53,112 nucleotides of DNA from a virus (lineage: Duplodnaviria > Caudoviricetes). The DNA is taken from positions 1-53,112 of the IMG/VR virus record IMGVR_UViG_3300022602_003246, one strand, 5' to 3'. Shown here piece after piece: positions 2,119 to 32,156 of the stretch (the first letter of the stretch is position 1; the number at the start of each line of letters is the position of its first letter). The notes beneath the pieces were generated by a model that saw only the letters and a list, made by a program, of their open reading frames with translations, ran no database searches and was not told where the DNA came from. Position numbers and translations under genes: made by a program.

Positions 2119-2131
2119 TTTACTTTTCCTT

Positions 2132-2410: not shown

Positions 2411-2411
2411 T

Positions 2412-2552: not shown

Positions 2553-2636
2553 GTTGGCTCCAAAAATACCTGTACTTATTTACCAATTATCGCATAAAAA
2601 TATTGACTAATATAGGAAAAATGCTATAGTTAAACA

Positions 2637-3185: not shown

Positions 3186-3188
3186 TTT

Positions 3189-4247: not shown

Positions 4248-4270
4248 TTGACAAAGACACAGATATAGTT

Positions 4271-4278
4271 TATAAATA
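4271..4278 (+). promoter_or_regulatory. T4-like late promoter TATAAATA
   Basis: Exact consensus upstream of the speD-like gene. Confidence 0.6.
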
Positions 4279-4312
4279 ATCTCTTAAATTGCTATCAACG
4301 AAGGAGACTGGC

Positions 4313-4675
4313 ATGAATAATACTTGGGGTTATCATTTGCTATTAGATTGCACAGCTGGTGATGTAAATCTTATTAGTTCAAAAGAAAATGTTTATAATT
4401 TTGTAAAAGAGTTAGTAGTTGCAATTGATATGGTTGCATTTGGTGAGCCATGGATTGAACGCTTTGCAACGCATGATCTTGGTAAGTCTGGTATTAGTTT
4501 CTGCCAAATGATTGAAACAAGTAATATCACTGGTCACTTTGTTGATGCTAATGGAAATTTCTATATTGACGTTTTCTCATGCAAACCTTTTGACAACGAT
4601 ACAGTAATCCAAACTGTTGACAAATATTTTAAACCTGAAAAGGTTCGCATGCATTACATTTCACGTGATGCTTAA
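4313..4675 (+). CDS. speD: S-adenosylmethionine decarboxylase proenzyme
   Basis: WGYHLLLDC, IETSNITGHF (self-cleavage Ser) and YIDVFSCKPFD; AAGGAG SD before ATG 4313. Confidence 0.8.
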   Translation: MNNTWGYHLLLDCTAGDVNLISSKENVYNFVKELVVAIDMVAFGEPWIERFATHDLGKSGISFCQMIETSNITGHFVDANGNFYIDVFSCKPFDNDTVIQTVDKYFKPEKVRMHYISRDA

Positions 4676-4679
4676 TTAT

Positions 4680-6038: not shown

Positions 6039-6748
6039 TTTGCTTCTTCCCAATTAGGATCAGCACGTAGATTAGTCATTAGATTATCAGCTTCTGTCTT
6101 GGGAAGTTTTCTAAGAATACTTTCTACACTACCTAAATCAGCAGCAGTTGCACCACTACCAAGTAAAACTTTGGCAACTGTTTCAATGTCATTAGTTACC
6201 ATTTCACCTTTTTTACCATCGGGTGTGCGCTTAAACAAACCTTGCCATGGACTAAACAAGTAACCTTTCATTTTTGCAAGCATAGCAATAGTTAATACTT
6301 TATTCTTGCCTTTATATGGACTGCCTTGCGGAATGGCGTGTGTATGAAATTTAGCAATAGCTTCTGCTTGTGGTGTAACCATAATGTCGGCTTGCACACC
6401 CATGCCATTTACTGGAACTAACACATGCACAATAATACCGCTTTGTGCAGTTTCAAATCCTAAGTTTCGCATATAATCAGCAAGTTTGCGACGTGCTTCT
6501 TTAGCATCATCTGTTTTAAAAAATGCTTTTACAGCATCTTCATCAGTCATAACATCAAAGTCGTTGCTGATTTTTCCTTTTACTGGATTTGCACCACTAC
6601 CAACTGGCGTTACCTTTAATCTTGCACCACTTAGTGCGTCATTTAATATCTTCAATACTTGTGGCACAACAGCCTGATCAAAGGATGTAGTGCCGATAAA
6701 CATATTGCCGCCTTCAAGAAGTATTGGTCTAAATTGTGTAAAACGCAT
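6035..6748 (-). CDS. Pol-beta superfamily nucleotidyltransferase-like protein
   Basis: VGS-x10-NDFDV (GS...DxD) and a third acidic residue in VQADIM. Confidence 0.6.
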   Translation of the reverse strand: MRFTQFRPILLEGGNMFIGTTSFDQAVVPQVLKILNDALSGARLKVTPVGSGANPVKGKISNDFDVMTDEDAVKAFFKTDDAKEARRKLADYMRNLGFETAQSGIIVHVLVPVNGMGVQADIMVTPQAEAIAKFHTHAIPQGSPYKGKNKVLTIAMLAKMKGYLFSPWQGLFKRTPDGKKGEMVTNDIETVAKVLLGSGATAADLGSVESILRKLPKTEADNLMTNLRADPNWEEAK

Positions 6749-6756
6749 ACAGATAT

Positions 6757-7971
6757 TTATTGTATCTGGATGTTTGGAAAATATCTCACAAATACATCGC
6801 CGCTATTGTTGCGAACTGCTTTAAGACGATTCACAATTTCATCAAAGAAGTTCCAAGCAAGCGGAACAAAACAAATATCTTGCCCAACATAATTTTGTAG
6901 ATGTTCAATTGGCACAACAGGAATACTCATGCCAGGCGTATATTTGTTCTGCTTAAGAGGATTATCATCAATGATAAAATCCATAATGATATTGCCAAAG
7001 TTAAGCAGTGTATTGCCTTTAGCTGGCGCACCATATCCCACAATAACACGATTATGTGCTTTGCGTTGTGCATCTAATACAATGCTTAAATCATTGACAG
7101 TTTTCTTGGCACCACTTGCCCAACGCTGATATGTTGAGTAATCATAGAGTCCTTGTATGCGTTCCCAATCCATATAACTTTTAACACGTGCAGGACATTC
7201 GGCATCAATAGAGAATACAAAGATATTACTGCCGCCATGAATAGTTCCCTTGACTACATCAATGAGATGTAAGCCAATATTGCTGGCAAGGGTATTAAGG
7301 CTACTAACGCTAAAAAAACTTCTATGCTCATGGTAAATCGTATCAAACTCGTTGTTTTGTATCATATCGCTTTGCGAGTTCTGAATAAACAACAGCGTAT
7401 TGGGATTCATTACCTGTTTGCAAAGTTCTAGGAATTGTTGTGGATTGTCTTGATGCGCAAAAACATTTTGTGCGTATATAATATCAACAGGATGCTTAAC
7501 TTTATCAATAGCATCTTGTGTTAAAAAGTCACAAATGATATTATGATTTTTGGATGAAATTGGATAGATGTTTTCAGCGGGGTCAATGCCCCACGTTTCC
7601 AATCCATACTTCTTAAAATAGTTTAACTGTGTGCCATCATTGCAGCCGATTTCTAATACACGGCGTGGCGCAACATCTTGGAAATATTCCATAACATATG
7701 CCGCAAACCACTTAAAGTATTCTTGCATGGTAAGCGATGTGCCGCTAACATAAACATAATCCTTGAAAATAATATTGGCATCAACTGCGTGAGTAAGTTG
7801 CAGATGATGACAATGCGGACAATAGTTTACCGCAAGTGGATATGACTCTTCAGGTTCTGTTGTTGTTGCCTTAAAACTATTGGCAAGTGGTTGAGAACCT
7901 AAATCTAATGTTAGCTTGAGATCGCTGCTGCCACAACATAGGCAGCGTTTAAGTGGTTTGCAATTATTCAT
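6757..7971 (-). CDS. NDP-sugar C-methyltransferase (Zn-binding N-terminus, class I SAM domain)
   Basis: CLCC...CPHC zinc motif, VLEIGCNDG, FDTIYHEH and GYGAPAKGNTLLN. Confidence 0.9.
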   Translation of the reverse strand: MNNCKPLKRCLCCGSSDLKLTLDLGSQPLANSFKATTTEPEESYPLAVNYCPHCHHLQLTHAVDANIIFKDYVYVSGTSLTMQEYFKWFAAYVMEYFQDVAPRRVLEIGCNDGTQLNYFKKYGLETWGIDPAENIYPISSKNHNIICDFLTQDAIDKVKHPVDIIYAQNVFAHQDNPQQFLELCKQVMNPNTLLFIQNSQSDMIQNNEFDTIYHEHRSFFSVSSLNTLASNIGLHLIDVVKGTIHGGSNIFVFSIDAECPARVKSYMDWERIQGLYDYSTYQRWASGAKKTVNDLSIVLDAQRKAHNRVIVGYGAPAKGNTLLNFGNIIMDFIIDDNPLKQNKYTPGMSIPVVPIEHLQNYVGQDICFVPLAWNFFDEIVNRLKAVRNNSGDVFVRYFPNIQIQ

Positions 7972-7992
7972 ACATTTAATTATCTATGGATA

Positions 7993-8211
7993 TTATAGTC
8001 CAATCATTTTTGAGTCATACTTGAAACTGCCGCGAAAATCATTACGCAGCCAATCTTCAAGAATTTCAAAACGCAGTGCGGCATCGCTGTCGCCTTCGCG
8101 TTCAAGGTCGGTGCGAGCAGACTTGCAAAAGTTTACCAAATCCGTAAGACGAATTTTATCACCATCTTGCAATGTTGCATTATGGGTTTTACCAGCACGT
8201 TGATTACTCAC
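7993..8211 (-). CDS. Hypothetical protein
   Basis: GTG start with AGGAG SD. Confidence 0.6.
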   Translation of the reverse strand: MSNQRAGKTHNATLQDGDKIRLTDLVNFCKSARTDLEREGDSDAALRFEILEDWLRNDFRGSFKYDSKMIGL

Positions 8212-8437: not shown

Positions 8438-8458
8438 GGGTTATAGATGGAGGCAATT

Positions 8459-8926
8459 ATGAACAAAGTTATCGTTTTTGACATTGATGGCACGATTGCC
8501 AACACTGAACATCGTAAGCATTGGGTTTCAAGCAAGCCAAAGAATTGGGCGGCTTGGAACGCTGGTATGGCTAATGACACGCCACATGCGGATATCAAAT
8601 TTATTATGGATATGTTGCGGTTTGCTAATGTAAACCATCCAGACCACGAAGATGAAATTGCTATTATTTTGTGCAGTGGTCGTGGCGAGGAAACTCGTGA
8701 AGTTACTCGTCGTTGGTTGAACGATAATGGCTTTACATATGAGCAACTGTATATGCGAAGCGAGGGCGACTATCGCAAGGATAGCATCGTTAAGGTAGAA
8801 TTGCTTGAACAAATCCGTAAGGATTGGGGACCACCGTTTTTATGGTTCGACGATAGAGAGCAAGTGGTGCAGGCGATCAGAGCAGAAGGCGTTCGTGTTC
8901 TACAAGTTGCTGACGGTAAATTTTGA
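8459..8926 (+). CDS. HAD-family polynucleotide 3'-phosphatase (PseT C-terminal-domain-like)
   Basis: FDIDGT, CSGR, LYMR...RKDSIVK, FDDREQVV and VLQVADG. Confidence 0.85.
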   Translation: MNKVIVFDIDGTIANTEHRKHWVSSKPKNWAAWNAGMANDTPHADIKFIMDMLRFANVNHPDHEDEIAIILCSGRGEETREVTRRWLNDNGFTYEQLYMRSEGDYRKDSIVKVELLEQIRKDWGPPFLWFDDREQVVQAIRAEGVRVLQVADGKF

Positions 8927-9535
8927 TTTACATTTATCGCCATGCCATCTAACAATATTTGATTTTATTGTTAGTATGCCACAATGTTCGCAATAAAATT
9001 TCGGCTGATTGTATGTTTTTCCTGTATGGGATTTAGATATTTTCAGCCGAACTTCATCTGTATGTGTTTTGCCATAAAATGGATTATTTTTTCCTGTTCT
9101 TTTTTCAGATAAATTTTTCTTAAACTTTTCGGTTCTTTTACAACCCATATTTCCTAATCTTGTTTTTTCTATACTTTCTTTTGTTCTTTTATGACCCATC
9201 AAAGTTTTTGATATCTTTTCTTTTGAATTTTGAGAAAAAATTCGACCACTTGTTCCATCACCGCCGTCAGTCATATTTCTTAAAATTCCAGTTCCTAAAT
9301 CAAGACGACCATACCAAGCAATCATACGACGCTCGATTGCTAACGCACCAATTTCTGTTAAATTGTGTTCAAGTATCATAATTTTATTTTTATTTTTTGG
9401 AACTTTTATGTTATGGTTTTTAGACCATGCTCTATCGGCTTTGCCTTTACCAATATAATATGGAGTGTTGTTTGATGCTCTTATATAAGCATATACATAA
9501 TATCCACTTGGTGGATTCGTTGGTGTAAATACCAT
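8900..9535 (-). CDS. Free-standing GIY-YIG-like homing endonuclease with NUMOD3 repeats
   Basis: YVYAY...PYYIGKG, E-rich helix, NMTDGGDG, NUMOD3-like GKTHTDEVRLKIS, C-terminal CEHC...HGDKC. Confidence 0.8.
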   Translation of the reverse strand: MVFTPTNPPSGYYVYAYIRASNNTPYYIGKGKADRAWSKNHNIKVPKNKNKIMILEHNLTEIGALAIERRMIAWYGRLDLGTGILRNMTDGGDGTSGRIFSQNSKEKISKTLMGHKRTKESIEKTRLGNMGCKRTEKFKKNLSEKRTGKNNPFYGKTHTDEVRLKISKSHTGKTYNQPKFYCEHCGILTIKSNIVRWHGDKCKSKFTVSNL

Positions 9536-9600
9536 TGCTGTTGTCCTTCACGACGATAGAGTAGGCAGGATTGCAGTCCGTGGCCTACACTATTATTTAT
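9536..9600 (-). ncRNA. Conserved structured leader, copy 1, with late promoter
   Basis: ATAAATAATAGT-GTAGGC-CAC-GGACTGCAATCC-T-GCCTAC-TCTAT-C-GTC-GTGAAG-GAC-AACAGCA-ATG; homologous to 32065-32130 and 53013-53076. Confidence 0.75.
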
Positions 9601-9630
9601 CACTGTGAATTCATTATATAATCTTTCTAC

Positions 9631-9658
9631 TTGACAACCCCATATTATATGCTATTAT
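9631..9658 (+). promoter_or_regulatory. sigma70-like promoter
   Basis: TTGACA-16 nt-TATTAT, TG extended -10. Confidence 0.6.
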
Positions 9659-9684
9659 GATGTATAAGTTAATGAAGATTTCTA

Positions 9685-9804
9685 ATGTTAGGATTTGTTG
9701 CACTTTGGTTTGTCATTTGGATTATGTGGTGGCCAGAGGATGTTGGCGAAACTATTGCCAAAATTCGCAAAGGCTATGATAAGACAATGGGGGATATGTC
9801 ATGA
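9685..9804 (+). CDS. 39-aa membrane peptide (not in ORF track)
   Basis: MLGFVALWFVIWIMWWPEDVG...; ATGA overlap with next ORF. Confidence 0.5.
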   Translation: MLGFVALWFVIWIMWWPEDVGETIAKIRKGYDKTMGDMS

Positions 9805-9968
9805 ATTTCTGGACAAGTATATTAGCAGTATTTTTTGTAGATGCAGTATGTGCGGCTATGAAATATAATCAAGGGCAAACATTTGTAATTTTAATTGCAA
9901 CTACTGTTTTGTATTTTTTAACACAGTTTGCTTTTGGAGTTATTAAAGAATGGAAGAATTTGGGATGA
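9801..9968 (+). CDS. 55-aa two-TM membrane protein (not in ORF track)
   Basis: MNFWTSILAVFFVDAVCAAM...; ATGA overlaps on both sides. Confidence 0.55.
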   Translation: MNFWTSILAVFFVDAVCAAMKYNQGQTFVILIATTVLYFLTQFAFGVIKEWKNLG

Positions 9969-10426
9969 CCACGCTTTATATGTTAGTTGGTGTGCCTGGT
10001 TCGGGCAAGTCAACTTGGATTAAGAACCAAGGTTTTAAAGATGTAATTATTGCATCAAGCGATGATTATATCGACCGTGTTGCGGCTGAAAGTGGCAAGA
10101 CTTATAACGAAATCTTTAGCCGTGCTATTGGTTATGCACAAAAGTTTTGTGATGCCCAAGTGCAGACTGCTATCAACCTTGACAAAACTCTTGTTTGGGA
10201 TCAGACTAACACAACTGCTAAGGGTCGCTGCGTCAAGTTACGTCGTATTCCTAACGATTGGCGCAAAATTTGTGTATTTTTTGAAACCCCTGAACCAGAG
10301 GAATTACAACGCCGTCTTGATAGTCGTGTAGGCAAGAGCATTCCAAAGGATGTTATGAAGTCTATGATTGATAACTTGGAAGTTCCTGATTTGAAAGAAG
10401 GTTGGGACGAGATAATTTGGGCTTGA
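9965..10426 (+). CDS. P-loop polynucleotide kinase-like protein (AAA_33)
   Basis: LVGVPGSGKSTW Walker A, SSDD and WDQTN. Confidence 0.85.
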   Translation: MTTLYMLVGVPGSGKSTWIKNQGFKDVIIASSDDYIDRVAAESGKTYNEIFSRAIGYAQKFCDAQVQTAINLDKTLVWDQTNTTAKGRCVKLRRIPNDWRKICVFFETPEPEELQRRLDSRVGKSIPKDVMKSMIDNLEVPDLKEGWDEIIWA

Positions 10427-11597: not shown

Positions 11598-12810
11598 TTA
11601 TTGTATCAGCAATCCTGCGTTCAATATCGCAGTTGTTGACAGCAACGATAAACCAACAAATATTGCTGGAACTGGTGGAAACACCACACTGTATCGCACG
11701 GCTACGCGACATGATTTTGATACACGATTAAAGGATGGTGGAACACTTATCAATATTACCCTTAAAGGCATTATTCCAGACTTAGTTTATGGTCATTTCT
11801 CTGCGCATCAGGTTGATTATATCAATCTAATGGATGATATAGAAGCATGGGCGTATAATACTTGTTTTTTTGCAGTCACAAAAAAACCACGTAGTTATAA
11901 AACACAATTTAATGGTGGATTAGCTGCAAAGATATACAGTCCATACAGTGAAGATTGTTTTCCATTTGTTTATAACAGTGGCAGCAACAATAGCATGAAC
12001 CGTTTGTTTAATAATGCTTTTTCAAATAGAGTAGTGCGACAATTGCCAGGAAAAAATCGCGACAACTTTGTCTATAATTACACAAACGCAAATATTCCAC
12101 ATGGTCCAAAGTTTGCGTTTTATGTTATGGAAAGTAAAAAGAGTTATACCGTAACTGAAGAACCGCTATATGGTGGAACTATTTGTTATATACCAACCCA
12201 AACAATTGAAGAAGCACAGAAATTACGATTGTTTGTTGAAAAAAACGCAGTATTTAAAGAATATGTACAGCGTATGAAATTACGAGGTCATGCTTTTAGT
12301 ATGCGCAATGTTCGTAAATTTGATATTAATCAAATAGTCACTGGATATGAAAATCCTGCTGAATGGAATATTGTTGAAAGTGATTTAGAACCACCTAAAA
12401 AAATTAATAATGAGATTAGTAAGGATCGTAATCGCATAAAGGCACTTGGTGAGGTGTTTACTCCAACTGATCTTGTTAACATAGTATTAGATGATATAAA
12501 AACACAAGATTTTAATGATCCTAAAAAAACATTTATTGATTCTATGTGTGGCGATGGTCAATTTTTAACGGAGATTTTGAAACGTAAATTAAAAAATGGC
12601 ATTGACCACGAAACAGCATTGCACACAATTTTTGGTATTGACATTATGTCAGACAACGTTAAAATGTGTCAGGATCGTTTACTGTATGGTCGTGAAGATT
12701 TGCGTCATATTGTAGAAAAAAATATTGTATGCGCTGATAGTTTAGAATACAATTATCTTTGTAATGAAGACGAATTTGGTCCAAACGGCATGTTTAGAGT
12801 AGGAGAGTAA
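11587..12810 (+). CDS. Amino (N6-A/N4-C) DNA methyltransferase, permuted motif order
   Basis: N-terminal ISNPAF (motif IV); C-terminal GEVFTP, FIDSMCGDGQFL, FGIDI and NIVCADSL. Confidence 0.75.
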   Translation: MKFDYCISNPAFNIAVVDSNDKPTNIAGTGGNTTLYRTATRHDFDTRLKDGGTLINITLKGIIPDLVYGHFSAHQVDYINLMDDIEAWAYNTCFFAVTKKPRSYKTQFNGGLAAKIYSPYSEDCFPFVYNSGSNNSMNRLFNNAFSNRVVRQLPGKNRDNFVYNYTNANIPHGPKFAFYVMESKKSYTVTEEPLYGGTICYIPTQTIEEAQKLRLFVEKNAVFKEYVQRMKLRGHAFSMRNVRKFDINQIVTGYENPAEWNIVESDLEPPKKINNEISKDRNRIKALGEVFTPTDLVNIVLDDIKTQDFNDPKKTFIDSMCGDGQFLTEILKRKLKNGIDHETALHTIFGIDIMSDNVKMCQDRLLYGREDLRHIVEKNIVCADSLEYNYLCNEDEFGPNGMFRVGE

Positions 12811-12812
12811 TT

Positions 12813-13031
12813 ATGGCAAGAATACATTATGCAGAGGTAGAATATGACATTGGTGAGTTTGATGATGACGAACTCATTGAAGAATTGAAATCACGCAATC
12901 TTAATTTTAAACCAGAAAAAGATGATCCGCTACTCTATGAATTGTACTTGGCTCGCGTTGAGGGAAATACTGTGCAATTTGAAAAAGCACTGCAAAAACT
13001 TTTCCTTGACAGATTAGATAAAAGAATATAA
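12813..13031 (+). CDS. Hypothetical protein
   Basis: ORF with GGAG SD in operon context. Confidence 0.6.
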   Translation: MARIHYAEVEYDIGEFDDDELIEELKSRNLNFKPEKDDPLLYELYLARVEGNTVQFEKALQKLFLDRLDKRI

Positions 13032-13045
13032 TATATATAGATAAT

Positions 13046-13121
13046 GGGCGGTTAGCTTAGCGACTAAAGCCGGTTCCTCATAAGAATTTGATCGGGGGTT
13101 TGAGTCCCTCACTGCCCACCA
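13046..13121 (+). tRNA. tRNA with CAT anticodon (Met or Ile2)
   Basis: Acceptor GGGCGGT/ACTGCCC, anticodon arm GGTTC-CTCATAA-GAATT, encoded CCA; atypical D and T loops. Confidence 0.85.
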
Positions 13122-13139
13122 TTTTTTGAAAGGTAACAC

Positions 13140-13427
13140 ATGACAGCATATATTGAGTTTAACAACGAAGTTCAACCAAGCATTGATATGCTGCGTGATA
13201 TGTTGCGTGAGGGCGTATGCGAAGTAGCATTTACCAAAGTCAATGGCGATTTGCGCACAATGCCTTGCACTCTTAAACCTGAACTGTTGCCACCCCAAGT
13301 TGTAGCAGAAGGTGAAGAAAAACGTGAACGCAAAACGAGTGACAAATCACTTGCGGTTTTTGTAACTGATATCGGTGAATGGCGTTCTTTTAGACTTGAC
13401 AGCATACATAGTATTAGTGTAAAGTAA
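13140..13427 (+). CDS. Sm/SH3-like beta-barrel protein (DUF2693/WYL_2-like)
   Basis: VAFTKVNGDLRTMPCTL...WRSFRLDSI. Confidence 0.7.
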   Translation: MTAYIEFNNEVQPSIDMLRDMLREGVCEVAFTKVNGDLRTMPCTLKPELLPPQVVAEGEEKRERKTSDKSLAVFVTDIGEWRSFRLDSIHSISVK

Positions 13428-13435
13428 AGAATAAT

Positions 13436-13568
13436 GCGCTCTTGGTGGAATAGGTAGACACAAGAGACTTCGGAGAAAGGGTAAACGCCCACTATGGTTC
13501 AAATCCAGAATCTCCGCCGTAAAATCTCTCGCTTCGGCGTACCAGTTCGATTCTGGTAGAGCGCACCA
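13436..13568 (+). tRNA. tRNA-Leu(TAA) interrupted by a 50-nt insert in the anticodon loop
   Basis: Acceptor GCGCTCT/AGAGCGC-A-CCA, Leu-type D arm GTGGAATAGGTAGACAC, anticodon stem AGAGA/TCTCT, long variable arm, T arm ACCAG-TTCGATT-CTGGT. Removing 13471-13520 gives loop CTTAAAA and an 83-nt tRNA. Confidence 0.85.
13471..13520 (+). other. Putative tRNA intron with mini-tRNA-like fold
   Basis: CGGAGA/TCTCCG stem, GGGT-AAAC-GCCC hairpin and TGG-TTCAAAT-CCA T-arm; boundaries ambiguous by 1 nt (13470-13519). Confidence 0.7.
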
Positions 13569-13596
13569 CCTATCACAATTTTAATTAAAATACATG

Positions 13597-13625
13597 TCTC
13601 CCTGTATAAATACTATACAGGGAGA
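13597..13625 (+). promoter_or_regulatory. SD-sequestering hairpin overlapping late promoter TATAAATA (13605-13612)
   Basis: Perfect 12-bp inverted repeat TCTCCCTGTATA/TATACAGGGAGA; the 3' arm carries the SD of the HNH gene. Confidence 0.8.
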
Positions 13626-13632
13626 TTAAAAT

Positions 13633-14259
13633 ATGTTATGTGATTATGAGTGTGGCGAAGAAGCAAAATATAAATTAAAAAATGGAAAAAATTGCTGTCA
13701 ACAACATTATAGTTCATGCAGAAGTGTTAAAGAAAAAAATTCACTCGGATTAAAAAGTGCATATAAAAAAGGCACACGAAAATCAGCAAAGAACATCTAT
13801 AATGAATTGCCACAAGAAACAAAAGATAAAATGGCATGGGCAAGAGGAAAAACTTTTACCGAAAATGTAGATGTTTTTACAGATTATAGTATGCATGGTA
13901 ATATGTTTATTAAAAAAAGAATAATACAAGAAAATCTTATTGAATATAAATGCCATAGGTGCGACGTGACCGAATGGTTTGGTGAAAAAATCACCCTTGA
14001 TTTAGACCACATTAATGGAAATAATCGTGACAATAGATTAGAAAATTTAAGATTTTTATGCCCGAATTGTCACAGTTTAACATCAACATATAAAGGCAGA
14101 GGAAAAAATATTGGAACCGTAAAAGTATCTGACGAAGAATTAATTGCCGCATATAAATCCGAAGGAAATATTCGTAAAACATTATTGAAAGTAGGACTAT
14201 CCGCAAAGGGTGGAAATTATGCAAGAGTAAAACAATTAATTGCAAAGTTTAACATTTAA
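13633..14259 (+). CDS. HNH homing endonuclease
   Basis: CHRC...LDLDHINGNNRDNRLENLRFLCPNCH. Confidence 0.9.
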   Translation: MLCDYECGEEAKYKLKNGKNCCQQHYSSCRSVKEKNSLGLKSAYKKGTRKSAKNIYNELPQETKDKMAWARGKTFTENVDVFTDYSMHGNMFIKKRIIQENLIEYKCHRCDVTEWFGEKITLDLDHINGNNRDNRLENLRFLCPNCHSLTSTYKGRGKNIGTVKVSDEELIAAYKSEGNIRKTLLKVGLSAKGGNYARVKQLIAKFNI

Positions 14260-14300
14260 TACTTGACGTTATCTAACCATATTGGTATATTAAAGTAATC

Positions 14301-14552
14301 ATGGCAGAAACATTTGATATAGATATTACAATACCCGCTGTTCACTATTATGGAAAAGAGTGGTGGATTGATCAAATGGTTATTTGGTGCTTGCAAAATA
14401 GTATTGAGTATGCTATTAATCTATGGCCGTATGCTAATGAAACGCAAGATGGTTGGACTAGTCAATGGTCATTCAAACGTAGTGAAGATGCTGCGTTATT
14501 TGGATTGCGTTGGAAGCAAAATGATTGGGGCTTGCCACACTTTCCAGTTTAA
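14301..14552 (+). CDS. Hypothetical protein, 'WC...F-x-x-x-E-D-x-x-x-F-x-L-R-W' family
   Basis: Shares motif with the 21563-22569 cluster. Confidence 0.6.
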   Translation: MAETFDIDITIPAVHYYGKEWWIDQMVIWCLQNSIEYAINLWPYANETQDGWTSQWSFKRSEDAALFGLRWKQNDWGLPHFPV

Positions 14553-16110: not shown

Positions 16111-16922
16111 TGCCCATACTAATAGCAGGCGGCGATAGTTTTACTTGGGGTAGTGAATTAGGTGATGATAAGTTTGATCACATAGAACATACCCCAAGTA
16201 AAAAAACATGGTCAGCACTTTTAGCAAAACATTTTGATTATGAATACAAATGTGTTGCTAAACCAGGCGGCGCAAACAATACAATTACTCGTCGCGTTGT
16301 GCAAGCAATTAATCAATATGCAGACCAAGAAATTTATGTTGCCGTTATGTGGACATTTACACATCGCAGTGAAATAAGATTGCGCAACATGCATCCATAT
16401 AACACAATTGTGCATGATCGGGTAACTGCCGCGCGTTATGATATTGATGATTATTGGATTAACTTCAATGCATGGCACGGGTTACCATTTGATGAAAAGA
16501 TGGAATTTTTTCCACGAGGCATGGATGAATCTTCTCGCAAATTTTTCCGCGAACAACATGATAAATTGTTTGAAATTGGTGTTGTGCAAGCAAGTGATGC
16601 TTACTACAAAGTAACAGGCGATTACAGTTTTCATAACTTTAATTCATTAAAAGAAATGATGTTTTTAGAAATGTATTGTAAGCAACGAAATATACCATAC
16701 TTTTTTTGTAGTGCAAGCGATGAATTGTTTAAACCGCAACCACCCGATTTATTAGAGAGTGGATTATATAATTTAGACTGGAATCATTGGTATAAGGACA
16801 ATGGTTTCAATATTTGGAGTGAATCATTGCCAAAAAGTGGTAATCATCCAGGTCCATTGGCGCACAGCGATTGGTTTAATTTGATATTGCCTAAAGTATC
16901 AGAGTGTTATAAAACTAAATGA
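16110..16922 (+). CDS. SGNH/GDSL-like hydrolase family protein
   Basis: GDSFTWG near the N-terminus, GAxN, C-terminal HPGPLAH. Confidence 0.6.
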   Translation: MPILIAGGDSFTWGSELGDDKFDHIEHTPSKKTWSALLAKHFDYEYKCVAKPGGANNTITRRVVQAINQYADQEIYVAVMWTFTHRSEIRLRNMHPYNTIVHDRVTAARYDIDDYWINFNAWHGLPFDEKMEFFPRGMDESSRKFFREQHDKLFEIGVVQASDAYYKVTGDYSFHNFNSLKEMMFLEMYCKQRNIPYFFCSASDELFKPQPPDLLESGLYNLDWNHWYKDNGFNIWSESLPKSGNHPGPLAHSDWFNLILPKVSECYKTK

Positions 16923-18169
16923 CAGAATTTCCAATTAAAACACAAACTGCTTGTCAACTTAAGTGGTCATGGAGCACAATTTATTTAAGTCGTGGAACTA
17001 CTTCAAGTTGTCATCGCGTCAATCAAATACAATTCACACATGAAAATTTTAATGACTTTCATAATTTACCTAAAAAGATTGAAGACCGTCAACTAATGAT
17101 TGATGGCAAAAGACCAGTTGGTGGATGCGAATATTGTTATAAGATTGAAGACGCTGGTGGATTTAGTGACAGACAATATCAAATGCACGACCAAACTATA
17201 TTACCTAAAGAATTAAATGAAAATAATTTTGCTACACAAGTTACACCCACAATATTAGAAATATATTTTAGTAATATATGCAATTTAAGCTGCTTATATT
17301 GCGGTCCACATTATAGTTCAGTCTGGCAAAATGAATATAAAAAATTTGGTACAATTAAAAAAGATATTTTAGAATTAAATCGAGATGCTGAATATCGTTT
17401 GAATGAAAATTATGATGTTATGGTCGCTAAACTGTGGGAATGGATGCGTGAAAATAGTAAACATTTAAAAAGATTCCATATATTAGGCGGTGAACCATTT
17501 TTCCAAAGTGAATTCATAGATTGCTTAGACCATTTTGAAGAATATCCAAATCCAGATTGCGAATTTGTTATCATTACTAATCTTATGGTTGACGATAAAC
17601 GCATGGATTATTACATTGAACGGTTTAAAAAACTTGTAGGTAAACGCAAATTAAAAGGTTTACAAATTACTTGCAGTTTAGATTGTTGGGGACCACAAGC
17701 GCAATATATTCGCACTGGTTTAGACCTTGCTCAATGGCAACGAAACTTTGAAAAACTATTGCAAATAAAATGGATACGGCTACAAATAAATCATGCAGTA
17801 AATGTGTTAAGCATAAAGTATATGCCAGAATTATTACAAAAAATTGCAGAATGGAATACGTTTAGAAAAATTTATACCCAATATATGACTGTAATGAAAC
17901 CTGAATATATGAATCCTGATATTTTTGGTGGAGAATTATTTGCGCAAGATTTACAAAAAATTATAGAAATGATGCCGCAGAACACAGAATTTGATAATAA
18001 CATTCGTGAATATTTTATAGGCATTGGTAAACAAATCGGTGCAGCAGAACCAAATAGTTACCAAATTAATAATTTGAAAATATTCCTAACTGAAATTGAC
18101 CGCAGAAGAAACACAGATTACCGTAAATTATTTCCTTGGTTGGCGGAAATATTTGAAAATAATGCTTGA
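16919..18169 (+). CDS. Radical SAM protein with twitch-like N-terminus
   Basis: CNLSCLYC, LGGEPF, ITN and SLDCWG. Confidence 0.87.
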   Translation: MTEFPIKTQTACQLKWSWSTIYLSRGTTSSCHRVNQIQFTHENFNDFHNLPKKIEDRQLMIDGKRPVGGCEYCYKIEDAGGFSDRQYQMHDQTILPKELNENNFATQVTPTILEIYFSNICNLSCLYCGPHYSSVWQNEYKKFGTIKKDILELNRDAEYRLNENYDVMVAKLWEWMRENSKHLKRFHILGGEPFFQSEFIDCLDHFEEYPNPDCEFVIITNLMVDDKRMDYYIERFKKLVGKRKLKGLQITCSLDCWGPQAQYIRTGLDLAQWQRNFEKLLQIKWIRLQINHAVNVLSIKYMPELLQKIAEWNTFRKIYTQYMTVMKPEYMNPDIFGGELFAQDLQKIIEMMPQNTEFDNNIREYFIGIGKQIGAAEPNSYQINNLKIFLTEIDRRRNTDYRKLFPWLAEIFENNA

Positions 18170-18331: not shown

Positions 18332-19063
18332 ATGACAGATTTATGTGATTATGGTTGTGGAACAGAAGCAAAATATAAACTAAAAAATGGAAAGAATTGT
18401 TGCAGTAAATCTACAAGTTCTTGTGATGGAATGAAAGAAATAAATCGTTCCAAAATAAAAAATTTAAGAAAAGATTTAGGCAATAATTATTGGAAAAATG
18501 GACACCCCAAAGGTTCATCGAAGGGAACAAGTATTAAAGGAAAAACATATGATGAAATATTTGGCGAACAAGGTGCTTTAATTCAAAAAGAAAAGTTGCG
18601 AAATGCAAATTTGGGTAAATCATTTTGGAATACTTTAAGTGAAGAAAAACAACAAAAGTTTAGAGATAAACATCGTGAAATAATTTTGAAAAGATATGAA
18701 GACGGTTGGATGCCAAAAGCTGGCAGATGTAAAAAAATTAGGTATTTTAGTCCAATAGCAGGTGAAGTATTATTAGATGGAACTTGGGAATTAAAAGCAG
18801 CACAATATATGGATGCTAAAAAATGGAATTGGAAAAGAAATACTGAAAGATTTGCATACATTAACCTATCTGGTAAAATAAGCCATTATACACCAGATTT
18901 TTATGTAGAAGAACTTGGCGGATATCTTGAAGTAAAAGGTTATGAAACAGAATTAGATCGTTGCAAGTGGAAACAATTTAAAAATAACTTGACAATATGG
19001 AAAAAAGATACTATATATAATATAACGGAGTCTGGGCAGGACGGTAATGCAGCAGCCTGCTAA
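18332..19063 (+). CDS. Free-standing PD-(D/E)XK (TnsA-like) endonuclease
   Basis: YTPDFYV...YLEVKG; Cys-rich N-terminus shared with the HNH at 13633; TATAAATA upstream. Confidence 0.75.
   Translation: MTDLCDYGCGTEAKYKLKNGKNCCSKSTSSCDGMKEINRSKIKNLRKDLGNNYWKNGHPKGSSKGTSIKGKTYDEIFGEQGALIQKEKLRNANLGKSFWNTLSEEKQQKFRDKHREIILKRYEDGWMPKAGRCKKIRYFSPIAGEVLLDGTWELKAAQYMDAKKWNWKRNTERFAYINLSGKISHYTPDFYVEELGGYLEVKGYETELDRCKWKQFKNNLTIWKKDTIYNITESGQDGNAAAC
18989..19017 (+). promoter_or_regulatory. sigma70-like promoter for tRNA-Ser, inside the endonuclease ORF
   Basis: TTGACA-17 nt-TATATA, 9 nt upstream of the tRNA. Confidence 0.5.
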
Positions 19064-19601: not shown

Positions 19602-20072
19602 ATGCGAATTGTAGATATCATAAACGAAGCAGGTGGCGAACCAATATATTATTTTGCATATGGTATGCTGACCGATCCGTCTCATATGCGTGGTGCAAAG
19701 TTTGTTGATCGTGCTGCGTTACTTAATTATAAATTTGAATTTCGCAGGTATGCAAACGTAGTTGAAACTGCTGGTAATCAAGTTGACGGTGTACTATGGG
19801 AACTACCAACTGATATGATACGTGAATTAGATCAGGTTGAAGGTTATCCAAATCTGTATGGTCGCAAAACAGTTCCTGTCTATACAGAAGATGGTCAGCG
19901 TTATGAAGCATGGGTTTACTACATGACACCAGAAACAGTCAGTAGAACAAAACGCGACCGTATGCCAAGTAATAGTTATGTAACTACAATATTAAATGGC
20001 TATCGTCATGCTGGTATTGCGTCACAACAAGTAAATGATGCCTATTATGAATTGCTTGATAATAAGCCATAA
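19602..20072 (+). CDS. Gamma-glutamylcyclotransferase (AIG2-like)
   Basis: YYFAYG, VDGVLW, LDQVEGYP and AWVYYM. Confidence 0.85.
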   Translation: MRIVDIINEAGGEPIYYFAYGMLTDPSHMRGAKFVDRAALLNYKFEFRRYANVVETAGNQVDGVLWELPTDMIRELDQVEGYPNLYGRKTVPVYTEDGQRYEAWVYYMTPETVSRTKRDRMPSNSYVTTILNGYRHAGIASQQVNDAYYELLDNKP

Positions 20073-20381: not shown

Positions 20382-21563
20382 ATGTTTTACGATTTTCCCC
20401 GTATCACCCACCTTGACCAGGTTCGTCCTGCTATTGAAGGTCGTGATGAATTTATCATTGCAGAGCGTGATTGGGGCTATGTAGTCAATTACATGGTCAG
20501 CATGTCTGATACCTTTCCGCCTGTTGAGTCAGAGATGGATGCAATTCGTCGTGAGTGTCGTGGTATGCTGTTCCACAAGGACGGCTCTATCATGGCTCGC
20601 CGCTTGCACAAGTTCTTCAACATTGGTGAGCGTGATGAAACGCAGTTTTCTGCGATTGACTTTTCACAGCCGCATGTTATCTTGGAGAAGTTAGACGGCA
20701 GCATGGTAACTGGCGTATTCACCGATGGTGGATTGCGACTTGGCACCAAAATGGGGATTACGGAAGTCTCTATGCAAGCAGAAGAGTTTGTAGCAACACG
20801 CCCACAGTATGAACAGTTCATTCGTTGGGCAGATCAATCATGTGGTTATACTCTTATATTTGAATGGTGTTCTCGTAAGCAACAGATTGTTATTGATTAC
20901 CCAGAAGACCGTCTTGTTTTAATCGCCGCTCGCCACAAGGAAAACGGTGCTTATGCAAGCCTGCAATGGTTGCAAGAGTATGGTGATATGTTTGAAGTAG
21001 AGGTTGTAAAGACCTATGCTGGTACCGCCAAGTCTATGGTTCATCTTATGGATGAAACTCGTGATGCCGAAGGCATTGAGGGTTATATCGTTCGCTTTGA
21101 TGATGGTCACATGCTAAAAATAAAGGCGGCTGATTATCTTCGTAAGCATAAGACAAAGGATGCTATCTCGTTAGAGAAGAACATTATCTCTTTGTTAGTA
21201 AATGAACAAATGGACGATGTAAAGGCATTTATGCTTCCAGACGACCGCAAGCGGGTGGAAGATTACGAAACCGATTTTTGGATCGGTGTAAATCAAGTAG
21301 TTCAGTCATATGACCGCTACTTTGATACTGTAATCGCTCACGGACTTGACCGCAAGCGTTTTGCTTTGGAATGGCTTCCTACAATTAAAGGTCAGGATGC
21401 TTTTGCTGGCAACATTGTTTTCGGCAAATTTGATCATCGTGATACGAGAACTATGGTATTAGATATCATCAAGCGTAGCACTGGAACCCAAACTAAAATT
21501 GACGAAGTTCGTCATCTTTGGGGTTCACATCGTTGGACTTATCACTTTGAGGCTGATGCTTAA
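20382..21563 (+). CDS. T4 Rnl1-type RNA ligase
   Basis: RECRG, KFFN, EKLDGS (adenylated Lys), FEW, EGY and LKIK. Confidence 0.9.
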   Translation: MFYDFPRITHLDQVRPAIEGRDEFIIAERDWGYVVNYMVSMSDTFPPVESEMDAIRRECRGMLFHKDGSIMARRLHKFFNIGERDETQFSAIDFSQPHVILEKLDGSMVTGVFTDGGLRLGTKMGITEVSMQAEEFVATRPQYEQFIRWADQSCGYTLIFEWCSRKQQIVIDYPEDRLVLIAARHKENGAYASLQWLQEYGDMFEVEVVKTYAGTAKSMVHLMDETRDAEGIEGYIVRFDDGHMLKIKAADYLRKHKTKDAISLEKNIISLLVNEQMDDVKAFMLPDDRKRVEDYETDFWIGVNQVVQSYDRYFDTVIAHGLDRKRFALEWLPTIKGQDAFAGNIVFGKFDHRDTRTMVLDIIKRSTGTQTKIDEVRHLWGSHRWTYHFEADA

Positions 21564-32130: not shown

Positions 32131-32156
32131 ATATTTTTTACATAGGTTTAAATAAA

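What the first reader, a model, noticed from the sequence alone, without database searches (positions are those of the whole stretch)
13436..13568. tRNA-Leu(UAA) with a 50-nt mini-tRNA-shaped intron in its anticodon
Seen: an otherwise canonical tRNA-Leu is split between U34 and A35 (or U33/U34) by 50 nt. The insert reads CGGAGA-AA-GGGT(AAAC)GCCC-ACTA-TGG(TTCAAAT)CCA-GAA-TCTCCG-CCG-T. It has an acceptor-like stem, a small hairpin and a true 7-nt T-loop arm, and its ends (GGAG...CTCCGCC) resemble those of the tRNA-Ser at 19027. Established: U34/A35 of tRNA-Leu(UAA) is the site of the cyanobacterial/plastid group I intron, but 50 nt is far too short for a group I ribozyme, and bacteria lack the archaeal/eukaryal splicing endonuclease. 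Inference: this may be a distinct intron class, excised because tRNA-processing nucleases (RNase P at the 5' end, a 3' processing nuclease) read it as a tRNA. Phage RNA ligase would then join the exons.
Basis: partly seen in the sequence, partly recalled or inferred. Interest (0 to 1): 0.9.

Follow-up and report, generated by a model that had tools for sequence, protein, structure and literature searches.

The report
Mini-tRNA-shaped intron in phage tRNA-Leu
A leucine tRNA gene of an uncultured giant bacteriophage is interrupted in its anticodon loop by a strongly conserved 50-base insert that fits no known bacterial intron type, so it probably has to be cut out and the tRNA rejoined by enzymes, a route not yet shown in bacteria or their viruses.

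Summary
Observation confirmed. Window 13436-13568 (+) is a tRNA-Leu(UAA) gene split in its anticodon loop by a 50-nt insert (13471-13520; boundary ambiguous by one T). A related phage has the same gene with identical exons and no insert. The filled allele occurs in 10 contigs (7 lineages). Their neighbouring gene is 76-95% identical in DNA, yet the insert differs at 0-2 of 50 positions, all unpaired. It is the only tRNA-Leu in a 130-kb relative.

It is not a group I intron, has no bulge-helix-bulge and matches no Rfam ribozyme. The phage genomes searched lack a splicing endonuclease and RtcB. A T4-type Rnl1 ligase and a split Pnkp lie in the same tRNA cluster.

Most likely it is an RNA-level intron cut out by protein nucleases and resealed by Rnl1. 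Splicing is unproven because no RNA data could be obtained.

It has a precedent: "enigmatic" conserved tRNA introns were reported in Lak megaphages. One Lak-C1 intron has the same D-arm-less mini-tRNA layout. In related phages a tRNA-Gly carries a 24-nt hairpin insert with compensatory changes. The resemblance to tRNA-Ser is not above chance once the T-arm is controlled for.

The parts
13436..13470 (+). 5' exon of tRNA-Leu(UAA): acceptor strand, D-arm, 5' anticodon stem and loop bases C-U-U
   Evidence: Sequence read. Rfam tRNA alignment. Identical to the first 35 nt of the uninterrupted gene in L215/L149.
13471..13520 (+). 50-nt insert (candidate intron). The boundary may shift by one T, to 13470-13519.
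   Evidence: Absent from the identical-exon allele. Differs at 0-2 of 50 positions among 7 lineages. No Rfam family at E <= 10.
13471..13476 (+). 5' strand of the 6-bp closing stem (pairs with 13511-13516)
   Evidence: Minimum-free-energy and centroid folds. Invariant in all copies.
13479..13490 (+). small hairpin: 4 bp with a 4-nt loop
   Evidence: Fold. Invariant.
13495..13507 (+). T-arm-like hairpin: 3-bp stem closed by G-C, 7-nt loop UUCAAAU (UUCAAGU in L018 and L231)
   Evidence: Fold. Motif scan. The variant is seen.
13511..13516 (+). 3' strand of the closing stem
   Evidence: Fold.
13517..13520 (+). 4-nt single-stranded tail of the insert, just before the 3' exon
   Evidence: Folds.
13521..13568 (+). 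3' exon: loop A-A-A-A, 3' anticodon stem, long variable arm, T-arm, acceptor strand, A73 and encoded CCA
13140..13427 (+). WYL_2-domain gene directly upstream. It serves as the syntenic anchor and the yardstick for divergence.
   Evidence: Pfam PF10902, E = 2e-12. Used to fetch relatives. 76-95% DNA identity among lineages.
13633..14259 (+). free-standing HNH endonuclease gene 65 nt downstream
   Evidence: PHROG HNH families, E = 1e-34. Weak Pfam HNH hits. At this exact position only in the window and L210.
8447..8926 (+). polynucleotide kinase-phosphatase, phosphatase half (HAD; motif DIDGT)
   Evidence: Pfam HAD_PNKP, E = 4e-27. PHROG polynucleotide kinase, E = 5e-35. Matches T4 Pnkp structures. 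Translation.
9950..10426 (+). polynucleotide 5'-kinase half (P-loop GVPGSGKST)
   Evidence: Pfam AAA_33, E = 2e-16. PHROG 505. Aligns to the T4 polynucleotide kinase structure 1LY1.
20382..21563 (+). T4 Rnl1-type RNA ligase, with the C-terminal domain of T4 RNA ligase 1
   Evidence: Pfam RNA_lig_T4_1, E = 2e-25, and T4_Rnl1_C, E = 3.5e-6. Aligns to T4 Rnl1 structure 2C5U, E = 2e-23, with the motif I lysine kept.

Best explanation
The 50 nt are a genuine intervening sequence in a working phage tRNA-Leu(UAA) gene. They are transcribed with the tRNA, fold as a separate small three-way junction on top of the anticodon stem, and are removed from the RNA by proteins, not by self-splicing.

**Proposed route**
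1. Endonucleases shared by the whole phage clade or supplied by the host cut at the two edges of the insert.
2. The tRNA body holds the two halves together.
3. The phage's Rnl1 ligase joins U to A (or U to U) in the anticodon loop.
4. The phosphatase and kinase halves of Pnkp first repair the ends if the cuts leave a cyclic phosphate and a 5'-OH.
5. The T-arm-like hairpin and closing stem probably place the 3' cut, which lies at the distance from the T-loop where a tRNA's 3' end would be.

**Shown**
- The interrupted gene, the empty allele, strong conservation, and absence of all known intron or ribozyme signatures.
- The repair genes are present and have intact motifs.

**Inferred**
- That splicing happens at all.
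- Which nuclease cuts.
- The chemistry of the ends.
- The role of the T-arm.

**My odds**

| Claim | Probability |
|---|---|
| Real RNA-level element under selection | about 0.95 |
| It is spliced out | about 0.65 |
| Protein nucleases plus Rnl1 do it | about 0.45 |
| RNase P or RNase Z specifically | about 0.2 |
For: **1. Precise filled and empty alleles.** L215/L149 has identical exons and a normal 7-nt loop at the same syntenic site.

**2. Selection.**
- Among 7 lineages the upstream coding gene is 76-95% identical in DNA. The insert differs at 0-2 of 50 positions and the exons at 0-1 of 83.
- The conserved block ends exactly at the tRNA gene's ends.
- The 3 variable insert positions are all unpaired; 0 of 26 paired positions vary.

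**3. The tRNA should be needed.**
- It is the only tRNA-Leu among 8 tRNAs in the 130-kb intron-bearing contig.
- UUA is the most used Leu codon (30%), and UUA plus UUG make up 47-49% of Leu codons.

**4. Self-splicing of known kinds is excluded.** The insert is 50 nt, and no Rfam family other than tRNA matches in 13400-13620 at E <= 10.

**5. Heal-and-seal genes sit in the same tRNA cluster with catalytic motifs intact**.

**6. No window gene is specific to intron-bearing genomes**. This fits a nuclease that is general to the clade or host-encoded.

**7. The phenomenon recurs.**
- A 24-nt hairpin insert sits in tRNA-Gly(GCC) of 3 related contigs, with an empty allele in L153.
- It shows 3 fully compensated base-pair changes in 9 pairs; slid controls show 0, and 8 of 500 shuffles reach the observed values.
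- A hairpin that simple is unlikely to be a ribozyme.
- The phage carrying it has phosphatase, kinase and Rnl1 side by side.

**8. Lak-C1 has the same layout.**
- Its 87-nt tRNA insert has the same closing-stem, hairpin and T-arm arrangement.
- The 3' exon starts 14-15 nt after the insert's T-loop, against 15-16 nt in the window.
- Lak-C1 has 4 above-threshold Rnl2-type ligase matches.
Against: - There is no RNA evidence at all. No RNA run holding the locus was listed.
- No candidate endonuclease was identified.
- Rnl1, the kinase and the phosphatase are just as present in intron-less relatives. The literature explains them as defence against host anticodon nucleases (PMC7824862, section 3.4.9, passages read). 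Their presence is therefore permissive, not specific.
- Stem structure in the Leu insert is not supported by covariation or by fold energy.
- The splice geometries differ. In Leu the 5' cut lies at a helix junction and the 3' cut in a 5-nt bulge. In Gly the 5' cut follows a 2-nt bulge and the 3' cut lies within a helix. One enzyme with one rule is not obvious.
- The near-identity of the 133-nt block across diverged phages could partly reflect recent exchange of the tRNA cassette and not long-term selection. Other relatives carry quite different tRNAs with the UAA anticodon at this site.
- Lak-C1 lacks Rnl1 and RtcB, so no single ligase family is tied to such introns.
Confidence: 0.45

Rival explanations
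1. The insert is never removed. The 133-nt RNA, or pieces of it, has another job. It could be a stable tRNA-scaffolded small RNA or a decoy or regulator that presents a T-loop, with the tRNA body serving only as a carrier. The phage would then get tRNA-Leu(UAA) function from the host.
For: - The insert is as conserved as the exons and carries a true T-loop motif.
- No nuclease and no spliced product are known.
- No gene co-varies with the insert.
- Relatives freely swap the tRNA at this site, so the slot tolerates change.
Against: - The exons are letter-for-letter those of an intact tRNA-Leu in a relative, and they stay invariant, including A73 and CCA. That is expected if the tRNA itself is used.
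- It is the only tRNA-Leu in 130 kb, and UUA is the top Leu codon.
- Two different tRNAs (Leu, Gly) in related phages, and more in Lak phages, carry unrelated inserts at the anticodon loop. That looks like introns in working genes more than like one special RNA.
Confidence: 0.2
2. The insert is a new, very small self-cleaving or self-splicing RNA. Its three-way junction with the T-loop catalyses both cuts, leaving cyclic phosphate and 5'-OH. Pnkp and Rnl1 then finish the job, or the RNA itself rejoins the exons.
For: - There is extreme conservation of every stem and junction base.
- A heal-and-seal set suited to ribozyme-type ends lies nearby.
- No protein nuclease candidate was found.
- In the 33/34 reading the 5' exon ends in U and the insert ends in G, as at group I splice sites (read).
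Against: - No match to any of the Rfam ribozyme families at E <= 10.
- 50 nt would have to perform two site-specific cuts.
- The companion tRNA-Gly insert is a plain 9-bp hairpin with a tetraloop. The Lak-C1 insert shares only architecture with this one, not sequence.
Confidence: 0.1
3. The cuts are made by an anticodon nuclease of the PrrC type, host- or phage-encoded, that normally cuts between U33 and U34. In the 33/34 reading the 5' junction keeps the upstream half of that site (C-U, then the cut). The 3' junction keeps the downstream half (the cut, then U-A-A-A-A). The nuclease would then excise the insert, and Pnkp with Rnl1 would seal it as in T4.
For: - The junction sequences are read.
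- A complete T4-type repair set is present.
- The PrrC/Pnkp/Rnl1 logic is established for T4: my own knowledge, plus PMC4090602 and PMC7824862 passages.
Against: - No such nuclease was looked for or found.
- The tRNA-Gly insert sits at 36/37, not 33/34.
- The idea rests on one of the two possible boundary readings.
Confidence: 0.08
4. The insert is a neutral or selfish DNA insertion that killed the gene. The filled allele persists only because it is young or hitch-hikes, for example by blocking cleavage of the anticodon-arm DNA by one of the neighbouring free-standing homing endonucleases.
For: - There is a single insert type in one phage group.
- It has 6-bp terminal inverted repeats.
- An HNH endonuclease gene lies 65 nt downstream in 2 lineages, and two more homing-type nuclease genes lie in the cluster.
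- One clade of intron-bearing phages is not rejected (AU p = 0.41).
Against: - The 7 lineages have diverged to 76-95% identity in the adjacent coding gene, yet the 133-nt block has decayed at 3 positions or fewer. A dead gene would not stay intact.
- There is no second tRNA-Leu in 130 kb.
- There is no other copy of the element in about 1.04 Mb searched with a covariance model. That does not fit a transposing element.
- The HNH gene is absent from this position in 5 of the 7 lineages.
Confidence: 0.1

Closest known systems
'Enigmatic' conserved tRNA introns of Lak megaphages (bioRxiv 10.1101/356790; passages of the abstract, the tRNA-intron section, the methods and the legends read)
   Same: - Inserts in the anticodon region of tRNA genes of huge phages.
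- The sequence is almost invariant between phage variants.
- Filled and empty alleles exist.
- There is no Rfam class.
- One intron was predicted to look like a tRNA.
- My own look at Lak-C1 (MK250029.1) shows an 87-nt insert with a closing stem, a hairpin and a canonical T-arm. Its 3' exon starts 14-15 nt after that T-loop, against 15-16 nt here.
   Different: - The phage lineage and host differ. Here the closest cultured Rnl1 homologues, at 34-42% identity, are in phages of Synechococcus, Roseobacter, Caulobacter and Sinorhizobium.
- The tRNA is different (Leu UAA).
- The insert is much shorter (50 against 87 nt). Its 5' edge is the 5' edge of the closing stem, whereas the Lak insert has about 30 extra nt in front.
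- There is no sequence kinship.
- Lak-C1 has Rnl2-type ligase matches but no Rnl1.
- The Lak intron sequences are in a supplementary table that I could not open.
Group I intron of cyanobacterial and plastid tRNA-Leu(UAA) (own knowledge; general statement in PMC4090602, passages read)
   Same: The same tRNA and the same or the adjacent position in the anticodon (U34/A35). Filled and empty alleles occur among relatives.
   Different: Group I introns are ribozymes of a few hundred nt with a conserved core. This insert is 50 nt and gives no Rfam group I match at E <= 10.
Archaeal and eukaryotic protein-spliced tRNA introns (bulge-helix-bulge, EndA/Sen endonuclease, RtcB or Trl1 ligase; PMC4090602)
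   Same: A short, non-catalytic insert in the anticodon loop that extends the anticodon stem. The expected route is cut, then ligate.
   Different: - No bulge-helix-bulge can be drawn: 0 of 32 geometries for either boundary reading.
- The position is 33/34 or 34/35, not 37/38.
- There is no EndA or RtcB family match in the 3 phage records searched.
- According to the review, bacteria are not known to have this machinery.
T4 anticodon-loop repair: PrrC cut, Pnkp healing, Rnl1 sealing (own knowledge; PMC7824862 section 3.4.9, passages read)
   Same: The same enzyme families are encoded here, in the tRNA cluster, with catalytic motifs kept. The natural substrate is a tRNA broken next to the wobble base, the very place where the exons must be joined here.
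   Different: In T4 the pathway repairs damage and no sequence is removed. Here Pnkp is split into two ORFs in the order phosphatase then kinase, with a homing-endonuclease gene between them.
tRNA-like structures cut out of longer RNAs by RNase P and RNase Z (for example mascRNA from MALAT1; recalled, not checked in any call)
   Same: A T-arm plus a closing stem inside a longer transcript, which could be taken for a tRNA by end-processing enzymes.
   Different: Those cases release the tRNA-like piece and do not rejoin the flanks. Here the textbook cut positions would not give the 7-nt loop seen in the empty allele (my reading).

Membership tests
tRNA (host gene), type II tRNA-Leu(UAA) | Cloverleaf that scores above the Rfam tRNA threshold | tested here: met
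   40.9 bits against a gathering score of 29, covering model positions 1-71, with the insert treated as a loop insertion.
tRNA (host gene), type II tRNA-Leu(UAA) | Long variable arm, A73, and anticodon UAA after removal of the insert | tested here: met
   Read. The exons equal the intact 83-nt tRNA-Leu(taa) of L215/L149.
Group I intron | Conserved catalytic core, with a length of a few hundred nt | tested here: not met
   The insert is 50 nt. No Rfam match other than tRNA at E <= 10 over 13400-13620.
Group I intron | The 5' exon ends in U and the intron ends in G | tested here: inconclusive
   True in the 33/34 reading and false in the 34/35 reading. The two readings cannot be told apart.
Bulge-helix-bulge (archaeal/eukaryotic) tRNA intron | Two 3-nt bulges holding the splice sites, separated by a 4-bp helix | tested here: not met
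   0 of 32 enumerated geometries give 4 central pairs, for either boundary reading. No positive control on a known BHB was run.
Bulge-helix-bulge (archaeal/eukaryotic) tRNA intron | A splicing endonuclease of the EndA/Sen family is available | tested here: not met
   PF01974 is absent from the window, G001 (130 kb) and G002 (338 kb, complete). The control rang in 4 archaea. The host genome is unknown, so the host side is not testable.
Known small self-cleaving ribozymes (hammerhead, twister, pistol, hatchet, HDV-like and others in Rfam 15) | Match to the family covariance model | tested here: not met
   No such family at E <= 10 in the permissive scan of 221 nt.
Huge-phage 'enigmatic' tRNA introns (Lak type) | Insert in the anticodon loop of a phage tRNA, nearly invariant among variants, with filled and empty alleles | tested here: met
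   compared with the description in 10.1101/356790.
Huge-phage 'enigmatic' tRNA introns (Lak type) | Insert with a tRNA-like module (closing stem, hairpin, T-arm) | tested here: met
   Same order of elements in the window insert and in the Lak-C1 87-nt insert. Neither insert alone is called a tRNA by ARAGORN at default settings.
Huge-phage 'enigmatic' tRNA introns (Lak type) | Common descent or sequence kinship with the Lak introns | tested here: not met
   The covariance model of the window insert gives no hit on the Lak-C1 insert at E <= 10 with filters off.
T4-type tRNA repair set (Rnl1 + Pnkp) | Rnl1 nucleotidyl-transferase domain with the motif I lysine, plus the Rnl1 C-terminal domain | tested here: met
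   PF09511 at 2e-25 and PF20819 at 3.5e-6. The alignment to 2C5U keeps K-x-D-G-S.
T4-type tRNA repair set (Rnl1 + Pnkp) | 5'-kinase P-loop and HAD phosphatase DxDxT | tested here: met
   GVPGSGKST aligned to the T4 Pnk P-loop. DIDGT in the HAD_PNKP ORF. Enzyme activity was not tested.
Transposable miniature element (MITE-like) | Multiple copies per genome or in other contexts | tested here: not met
   - One copy in the window.
- Only the known copies in about 1.04 Mb searched with the covariance model.
- All database hits lie in this one tRNA.
- None in the prokaryote genome collection.

The most novel reading that the evidence does not exclude
Bacteriophages have their own, third kind of tRNA splicing. 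A miniature tRNA mimic placed in the anticodon loop (closing stem plus T-arm) makes the cell's ordinary tRNA end-processing enzymes cut at the insert's edges. RNase P or a relative would cut at the 5' side. A 3'-end nuclease would measure about 15 nt from the T-loop. The phage's RNA-repair enzymes (Rnl1, with Pnkp if needed) would then join the exons. That would give T4-type RNA ligase and Pnkp a constitutive splicing role besides damage repair, and would explain the 'enigmatic' introns of Lak and other huge phages.
Probability: 0.25. Interest if true: 0.9.

Novelty: new variant of a known kind. Interest (0 to 1): 0.7.

Why it matters
Textbook knowledge, restated in PMC4090602, is that bacterial tRNA introns are self-splicing group I introns and that protein-spliced tRNA introns belong to archaea and eukaryotes. 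Conserved short tRNA inserts in huge phages were noticed in 2018 and called enigmatic. My 10 literature searches found no mechanism for them.

This locus is a compact and tractable example:
- The precursor is only 133 nt.
- An exact empty allele exists for comparison.
- A ligase, a kinase and a phosphatase are encoded a few kb away.

It also yields a structural rule shared with a Lak intron: a T-arm 14-16 nt upstream of the 3' splice site. That rule turns a vague observation into bench-testable predictions.

If splicing is confirmed, it would be the first enzyme-dependent tRNA splicing route in the bacterial world. It would also be a physiological substrate for phage RNA-repair enzymes that are laboratory workhorses. 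If splicing is not confirmed, the locus is still a strongly selected structured RNA of unknown function embedded in a tRNA.

Tried and rejected
**RNA evidence.** The look-up of sequencing runs (kind rna) on 12800-14400 listed no RNA holder, so read laying could not be used. This says nothing about expression.

**Close relatives among cultured phages.**
- Megablast of 12800-14400 found none.
- blastn of the 133 nt matched only exon halves of tRNA-Leu genes in 3 records, none covering 80% or more of the query.

**Gapped exon pattern**. It gave 22 stretches: 5 are the true gene and 17 are chance matches in unrelated sequence.

**Searches for diverged or relocated copies.**
- Core pattern: 5 viral, 8 metagenome and 0 genome contigs.
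- Boundary-anchored free-interior pattern: the same 5 contigs.
- Covariance model over about 1.04 Mb: only the known copies.
- No covariation could therefore be obtained for the Leu insert.

**Origin from a tRNA.** Simple shuffles suggested likeness to the window's tRNA-Ser and to the 77-nt tRNA(UAA) of G002. With the T-arm 11-mer held fixed, 40 of 100 controls do as well, and the 5' and 3' parts alone are ordinary (65 and 68 of 100). I rejected this idea.

**Mobility or patchy distribution.**
- My first AU test (p = 5e-56) was unfair. It held 4 intron rows against 26 rows that included phages whose allele is unknown. I discard it.
- The fair test (4 intron rows against 6 known intron-less rows) gives p = 0.41. 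A single clade is not rejected.
- L167 was left out of the tree because its Rnl1 is partial.

**Intron-specific genes.**
- The 19 ORFs of 8.4-22 kb were compared across 8 intron-bearing and 15 other loci.
- 82 window ORFs were compared with G001 and G002.
- L154 was compared with L153.
- Nothing tracks the inserts except two AMP-binding enzyme genes shared by the tRNA-Gly-intron phages. These are not nucleases.

**Other rejected ideas.**
- RNase III: rejected by reading. The stagger of the two cuts does not fit a 2-nt 3' overhang on the predicted helix.
- tRNA-Gly pattern in prokaryote genomes: one hit, a chance match in a coding gene with no tRNA.

**Literature searches.** Searches found no paper giving a mechanism for short phage tRNA introns. 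PMC7162821 has no 'intron' in its main text. PMC10879173 concerns ribozymes beside tRNAs, not introns.

**Not held.** The records behind L002, L231, L149, L173, L150 and L147 were not held and so were not searched.
Full report
**1. What is there**

- The window is a 53,112-bp viral contig that CheckV rates 16% complete, that is, a fragment of a genome of roughly 300 kb or more.
- At 13436-13568 on the + strand lies a 133-nt gene:
  - 35 nt that form the 5' part of a type II tRNA, up to loop bases C-U-U;
  - a 50-nt insert (13471-13520);
  - 48 nt that supply A-A-A-A, the 3' anticodon stem, a long variable arm, the T-arm, the acceptor strand, A73 and an encoded CCA.
- Default ARAGORN and Rfam at gathering threshold skip the gene.
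- ARAGORN with introns allowed finds it but forces a 38/39 cut and calls it Arg(tcg).
- Rfam in permissive mode aligns the whole stretch to the tRNA model at 40.9 bits, with the insert as a loop insertion. It reports no other credible family at E <= 10.

**2. Identity and boundaries**

- I used the upstream WYL_2 gene and the downstream Rnl1 gene as anchors to fetch syntenic regions of related viral contigs.
- One contig (loci L215 and L149) has, at the same place, an 83-nt tRNA-Leu(taa). Its sequence equals the window's exons joined, with the normal loop CUUAAAA.
- This fixes the gene as tRNA-Leu(UAA) and the insert as exactly 50 nt.
- The insert lies between U33/U34 or U34/A35. The two readings cannot be told apart because a T flanks both ends.
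- Other relatives have different tRNAs with a UAA anticodon at this spot. Some are type II; some are 77-nt tRNAs without a long variable arm.

**3. Not an artefact, and conserved**

- The filled gene is in 5 further viral contigs.
- It is also in 8 metagenome contigs. Four have the lengths of viral contigs already found and four are new.
- That is 10 contigs with the window, falling into 7 lineages by their flanks.
- Between lineages, over the 296 nt upstream (a protein-coding gene, itself constrained), DNA identity is 76-95%. The insert differs at 0-2 of 50 positions and the exons at 0-1 of 83.
- By my arithmetic, at 80% identity 50 unchanged bases have a chance of about 1e-5.
- Conservation stops at the ends of the tRNA gene.
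- The three variable insert positions are two linker bases and one T-loop base. None of the 26 predicted paired bases varies.
- That pattern fits selection on the RNA, but it gives no covariation.
- The insert's fold energy is unremarkable: z = -1.53, and 19 of 200 shuffles fold as well.

**4. Is the tRNA needed?**

- In the 130-kb intron-bearing contig G001 the interrupted gene is the only tRNA-Leu among 8 tRNAs.
- UUA is the commonest Leu codon (30%). UUA plus UUG make up 47-49% of Leu codons in both the window and G001.
- A dead gene would be costly, and it would not stay intact across these lineages.

**5. What it is not**

- Group I intron: 50 nt is far too short, and there is no Rfam match.
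- Bulge-helix-bulge intron: none of 32 enumerated geometries per boundary reading gives a 4-bp central helix between 3-nt bulges holding the cuts (no positive control was run).
- The EndA family and RtcB are absent from the window, G001 and the complete 338-kb relative G002, while the controls rang.
- Known small ribozymes: no match at E <= 10.
- Multi-copy element: there is one copy in the window. A covariance model of the insert finds only the known copies in about 1.04 Mb. The prokaryote genome collection has none.
- A recognisable tRNA on its own: ARAGORN does not call the insert on its own strand.
- A derivative of the tRNA-Ser: the apparent likeness to the tRNA-Ser and to a 77-nt tRNA(UAA) disappears when the T-arm 11-mer is kept fixed in the controls. 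Then 40 of 100 controls do as well.

**6. Context**

The tRNA cluster (Met, Leu, Val, Ser, Arg) is interleaved with RNA-repair genes:

| Gene | Coordinates | Evidence |
|---|---|---|
| HAD_PNKP phosphatase | 8447-8926 | motif DIDGT |
| Polynucleotide kinase | 9950-10426 | P-loop as in T4 Pnk |
| T4 Rnl1-type ligase with the Rnl1 C-terminal domain | 20382-21563 | motif I lysine kept |

- Free-standing homing-type nuclease genes sit between them: NUMOD3 at 8900-9535, HNH at 13633-14259, and an HNH-related ORF at 18332-19063.
- The repair genes also occur in intron-less relatives, and no ORF tracks the insert.
- The jumbo-phage overview explains such repair sets as a counter to host anticodon nucleases (PMC7824862, passages read).
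- The closest cultured Rnl1 homologues (34-42% identity) are in phages of bacteria.
- A tree of Rnl1 does not reject a single intron-bearing clade: AU p = 0.41 for 4 rows against 6. An earlier test was unfair and is discarded.

**7. The phenomenon recurs**

- I scanned 237 held loci (2.49 Mb, 1138 tRNAs) with ARAGORN in intron mode. It gave 27 intron calls: 23 are this gene in redundant fetches and 4 are others.
- One of those four is solid. A tRNA-Gly(GCC) in L154 has a 24-nt insert between C36 and A37.
  - It recurs in 3 viral contigs, and the related L153 has the empty allele.
  - It forms a 9-bp hairpin stacked on an extended anticodon stem. The pre-tRNA has z = -4.9, and 0 of 200 shuffles fold as well.
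  - The L265 copy differs at 7 of 24 positions. Six of those changes make three compensated pairs, and L266 adds a G.U to G-C change.
  - Pair counting gives 100% paired cells and 3 double changes in the insert helix. Slid controls give 0, and 8 of 500 shuffles reach the observed values, with only three sequences.
  - That phage has phosphatase, kinase and Rnl1 side by side.
  - Cultured phages hold only uninterrupted homologues.

**8. Prior art**

- The Lak megaphage preprint (10.1101/356790; passages read) reports tRNAs with 'highly conserved', 'enigmatic' introns and filled and empty alleles. [quoted passage not shown]
- The tRNA-intron review states that bacterial tRNA introns are group I and that protein-spliced ones are archaeal or eukaryotic (PMC4090602, passages).
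- I located the tRNAs of Lak-C1 (MK250029.1) with the Rfam model and examined the 160-nt one.
  - Read as Gly(TCC), it has an 87-nt insert at 36/37 or 37/38.
  - The insert contains an 8-bp closing stem, 2 nt, a 6-bp hairpin with a 7-nt loop, 5 nt, and a canonical T-arm that runs straight into the closing stem. The 3' exon follows 1-2 nt later.
  - That is the same order of parts as in the window's insert.
- Each of these two precursors has exactly two T-loop motifs, one in the exon and one in the insert.
- The 3' exon begins 15-16 nt (window) or 14-15 nt (Lak-C1) after the insert's T-loop. By established tRNA numbering, the CCA end of a tRNA lies 16 nt after its T-loop.
- There is no sequence kinship.
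- Lak-C1 lacks Rnl1 (search validated on the window), RtcB and EndA. It has 7 Rnl2-family matches, 4 above threshold.

**9. Reading**

- The best-supported view is that this is an RNA-level intron of the still unexplained huge-phage kind. Proteins remove it, and an ATP-dependent RNA ligase rejoins the exons (here Rnl1, with Pnkp if the ends need healing).
- The shared T-arm spacing suggests that tRNA mimicry sets the 3' cut.
- The tRNA-Gly hairpin insert shows that mimicry is not universal.
- Nothing here shows that splicing occurs. That is the main gap, and it is directly testable.

Noticed in passing
L154:525-623 (also L267, L266:4450-4548 minus strand, L265:1120-1218); empty allele at L153:2256-2330: A tRNA-Gly(GCC) has a 24-nt hairpin insert between C36 and A37 in 3 related viral contigs. 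Three base pairs changed on both sides and one on one side. The relative L153 has the uninterrupted gene in the same Asn-Gly-Leu-Ser-Pro-Gln cluster.
   Followed up: yes
L209:4297-4373, L172:1401-1477, L152:4340-4416, L147:2811-2887, L211:1130-1206; G002 291844-291920 (minus strand): At the site that holds the interrupted tRNA-Leu, other relatives carry a 77-nt tRNA with anticodon UAA but no long variable arm. This is a type I body with a leucine anticodon, and which amino acid it carries is open.
   Followed up: partly
window 8447-10426: The polynucleotide kinase-phosphatase is split into two ORFs in the order phosphatase then kinase. A NUMOD3 homing-endonuclease-type gene lies on the opposite strand (8900-9535), overlapping the end of the phosphatase ORF.
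   Followed up: partly
window 18332-19063: A 243-aa ORF related to the HNH gene at 13633-14259 and to PHROG 'endonuclease' families lies between tRNA-Val and tRNA-Ser. It overlaps the first 37 nt of the tRNA-Ser gene. It is present in some relatives only. A further NUMOD3 ORF lies at 31504-32172.
   Followed up: partly
L270:3572-3676 and 3686-3806; Lak-C1 record 174723-174823: Lak-C1 has further tRNA-model hits of 101-121 nt. ARAGORN's intron placement in them looks wrong: one seems to be a tRNA-Phe(GAA) with extra sequence before the anticodon arm. I did not resolve them.
   Followed up: partly
L154:4885-7832 (also in L266): Two adjacent ORFs of about 490 aa for AMP-binding (adenylate-forming) enzymes sit inside the tRNA cluster of the tRNA-Gly-intron phages. 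They are absent from L153, the window, G001 and G002.
   Followed up: partly
window 364-8000 and 16919-18169: There is a dense set of modification-type enzymes: three radical SAM proteins (364-1434, 3189-4247, 16919-18169), an AdoMet decarboxylase (4289-4675), a C-methyltransferase (6757-7971) and two gamma-glutamyl cyclotransferase-like genes (19602-20072, 28387-28824).
   Followed up: no
window 2637-3185, 24689-25015, 26964-27797: Other RNA-related genes are present: an Rv2179c-like 3'-5' exoribonuclease, a small S4-domain protein resembling the C-terminal domain of TyrRS, and a non-specific DNA/RNA endonuclease. None was tested as a splicing factor.
   Followed up: no
L112:8428-8548 (minus strand), L029:4576-4754, L116:1624-1722 (minus strand): Three further ARAGORN intron calls (26, 88 and 4 nt) occur in unrelated viral contigs. 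They look doubtful and were not evaluated.
   Followed up: no
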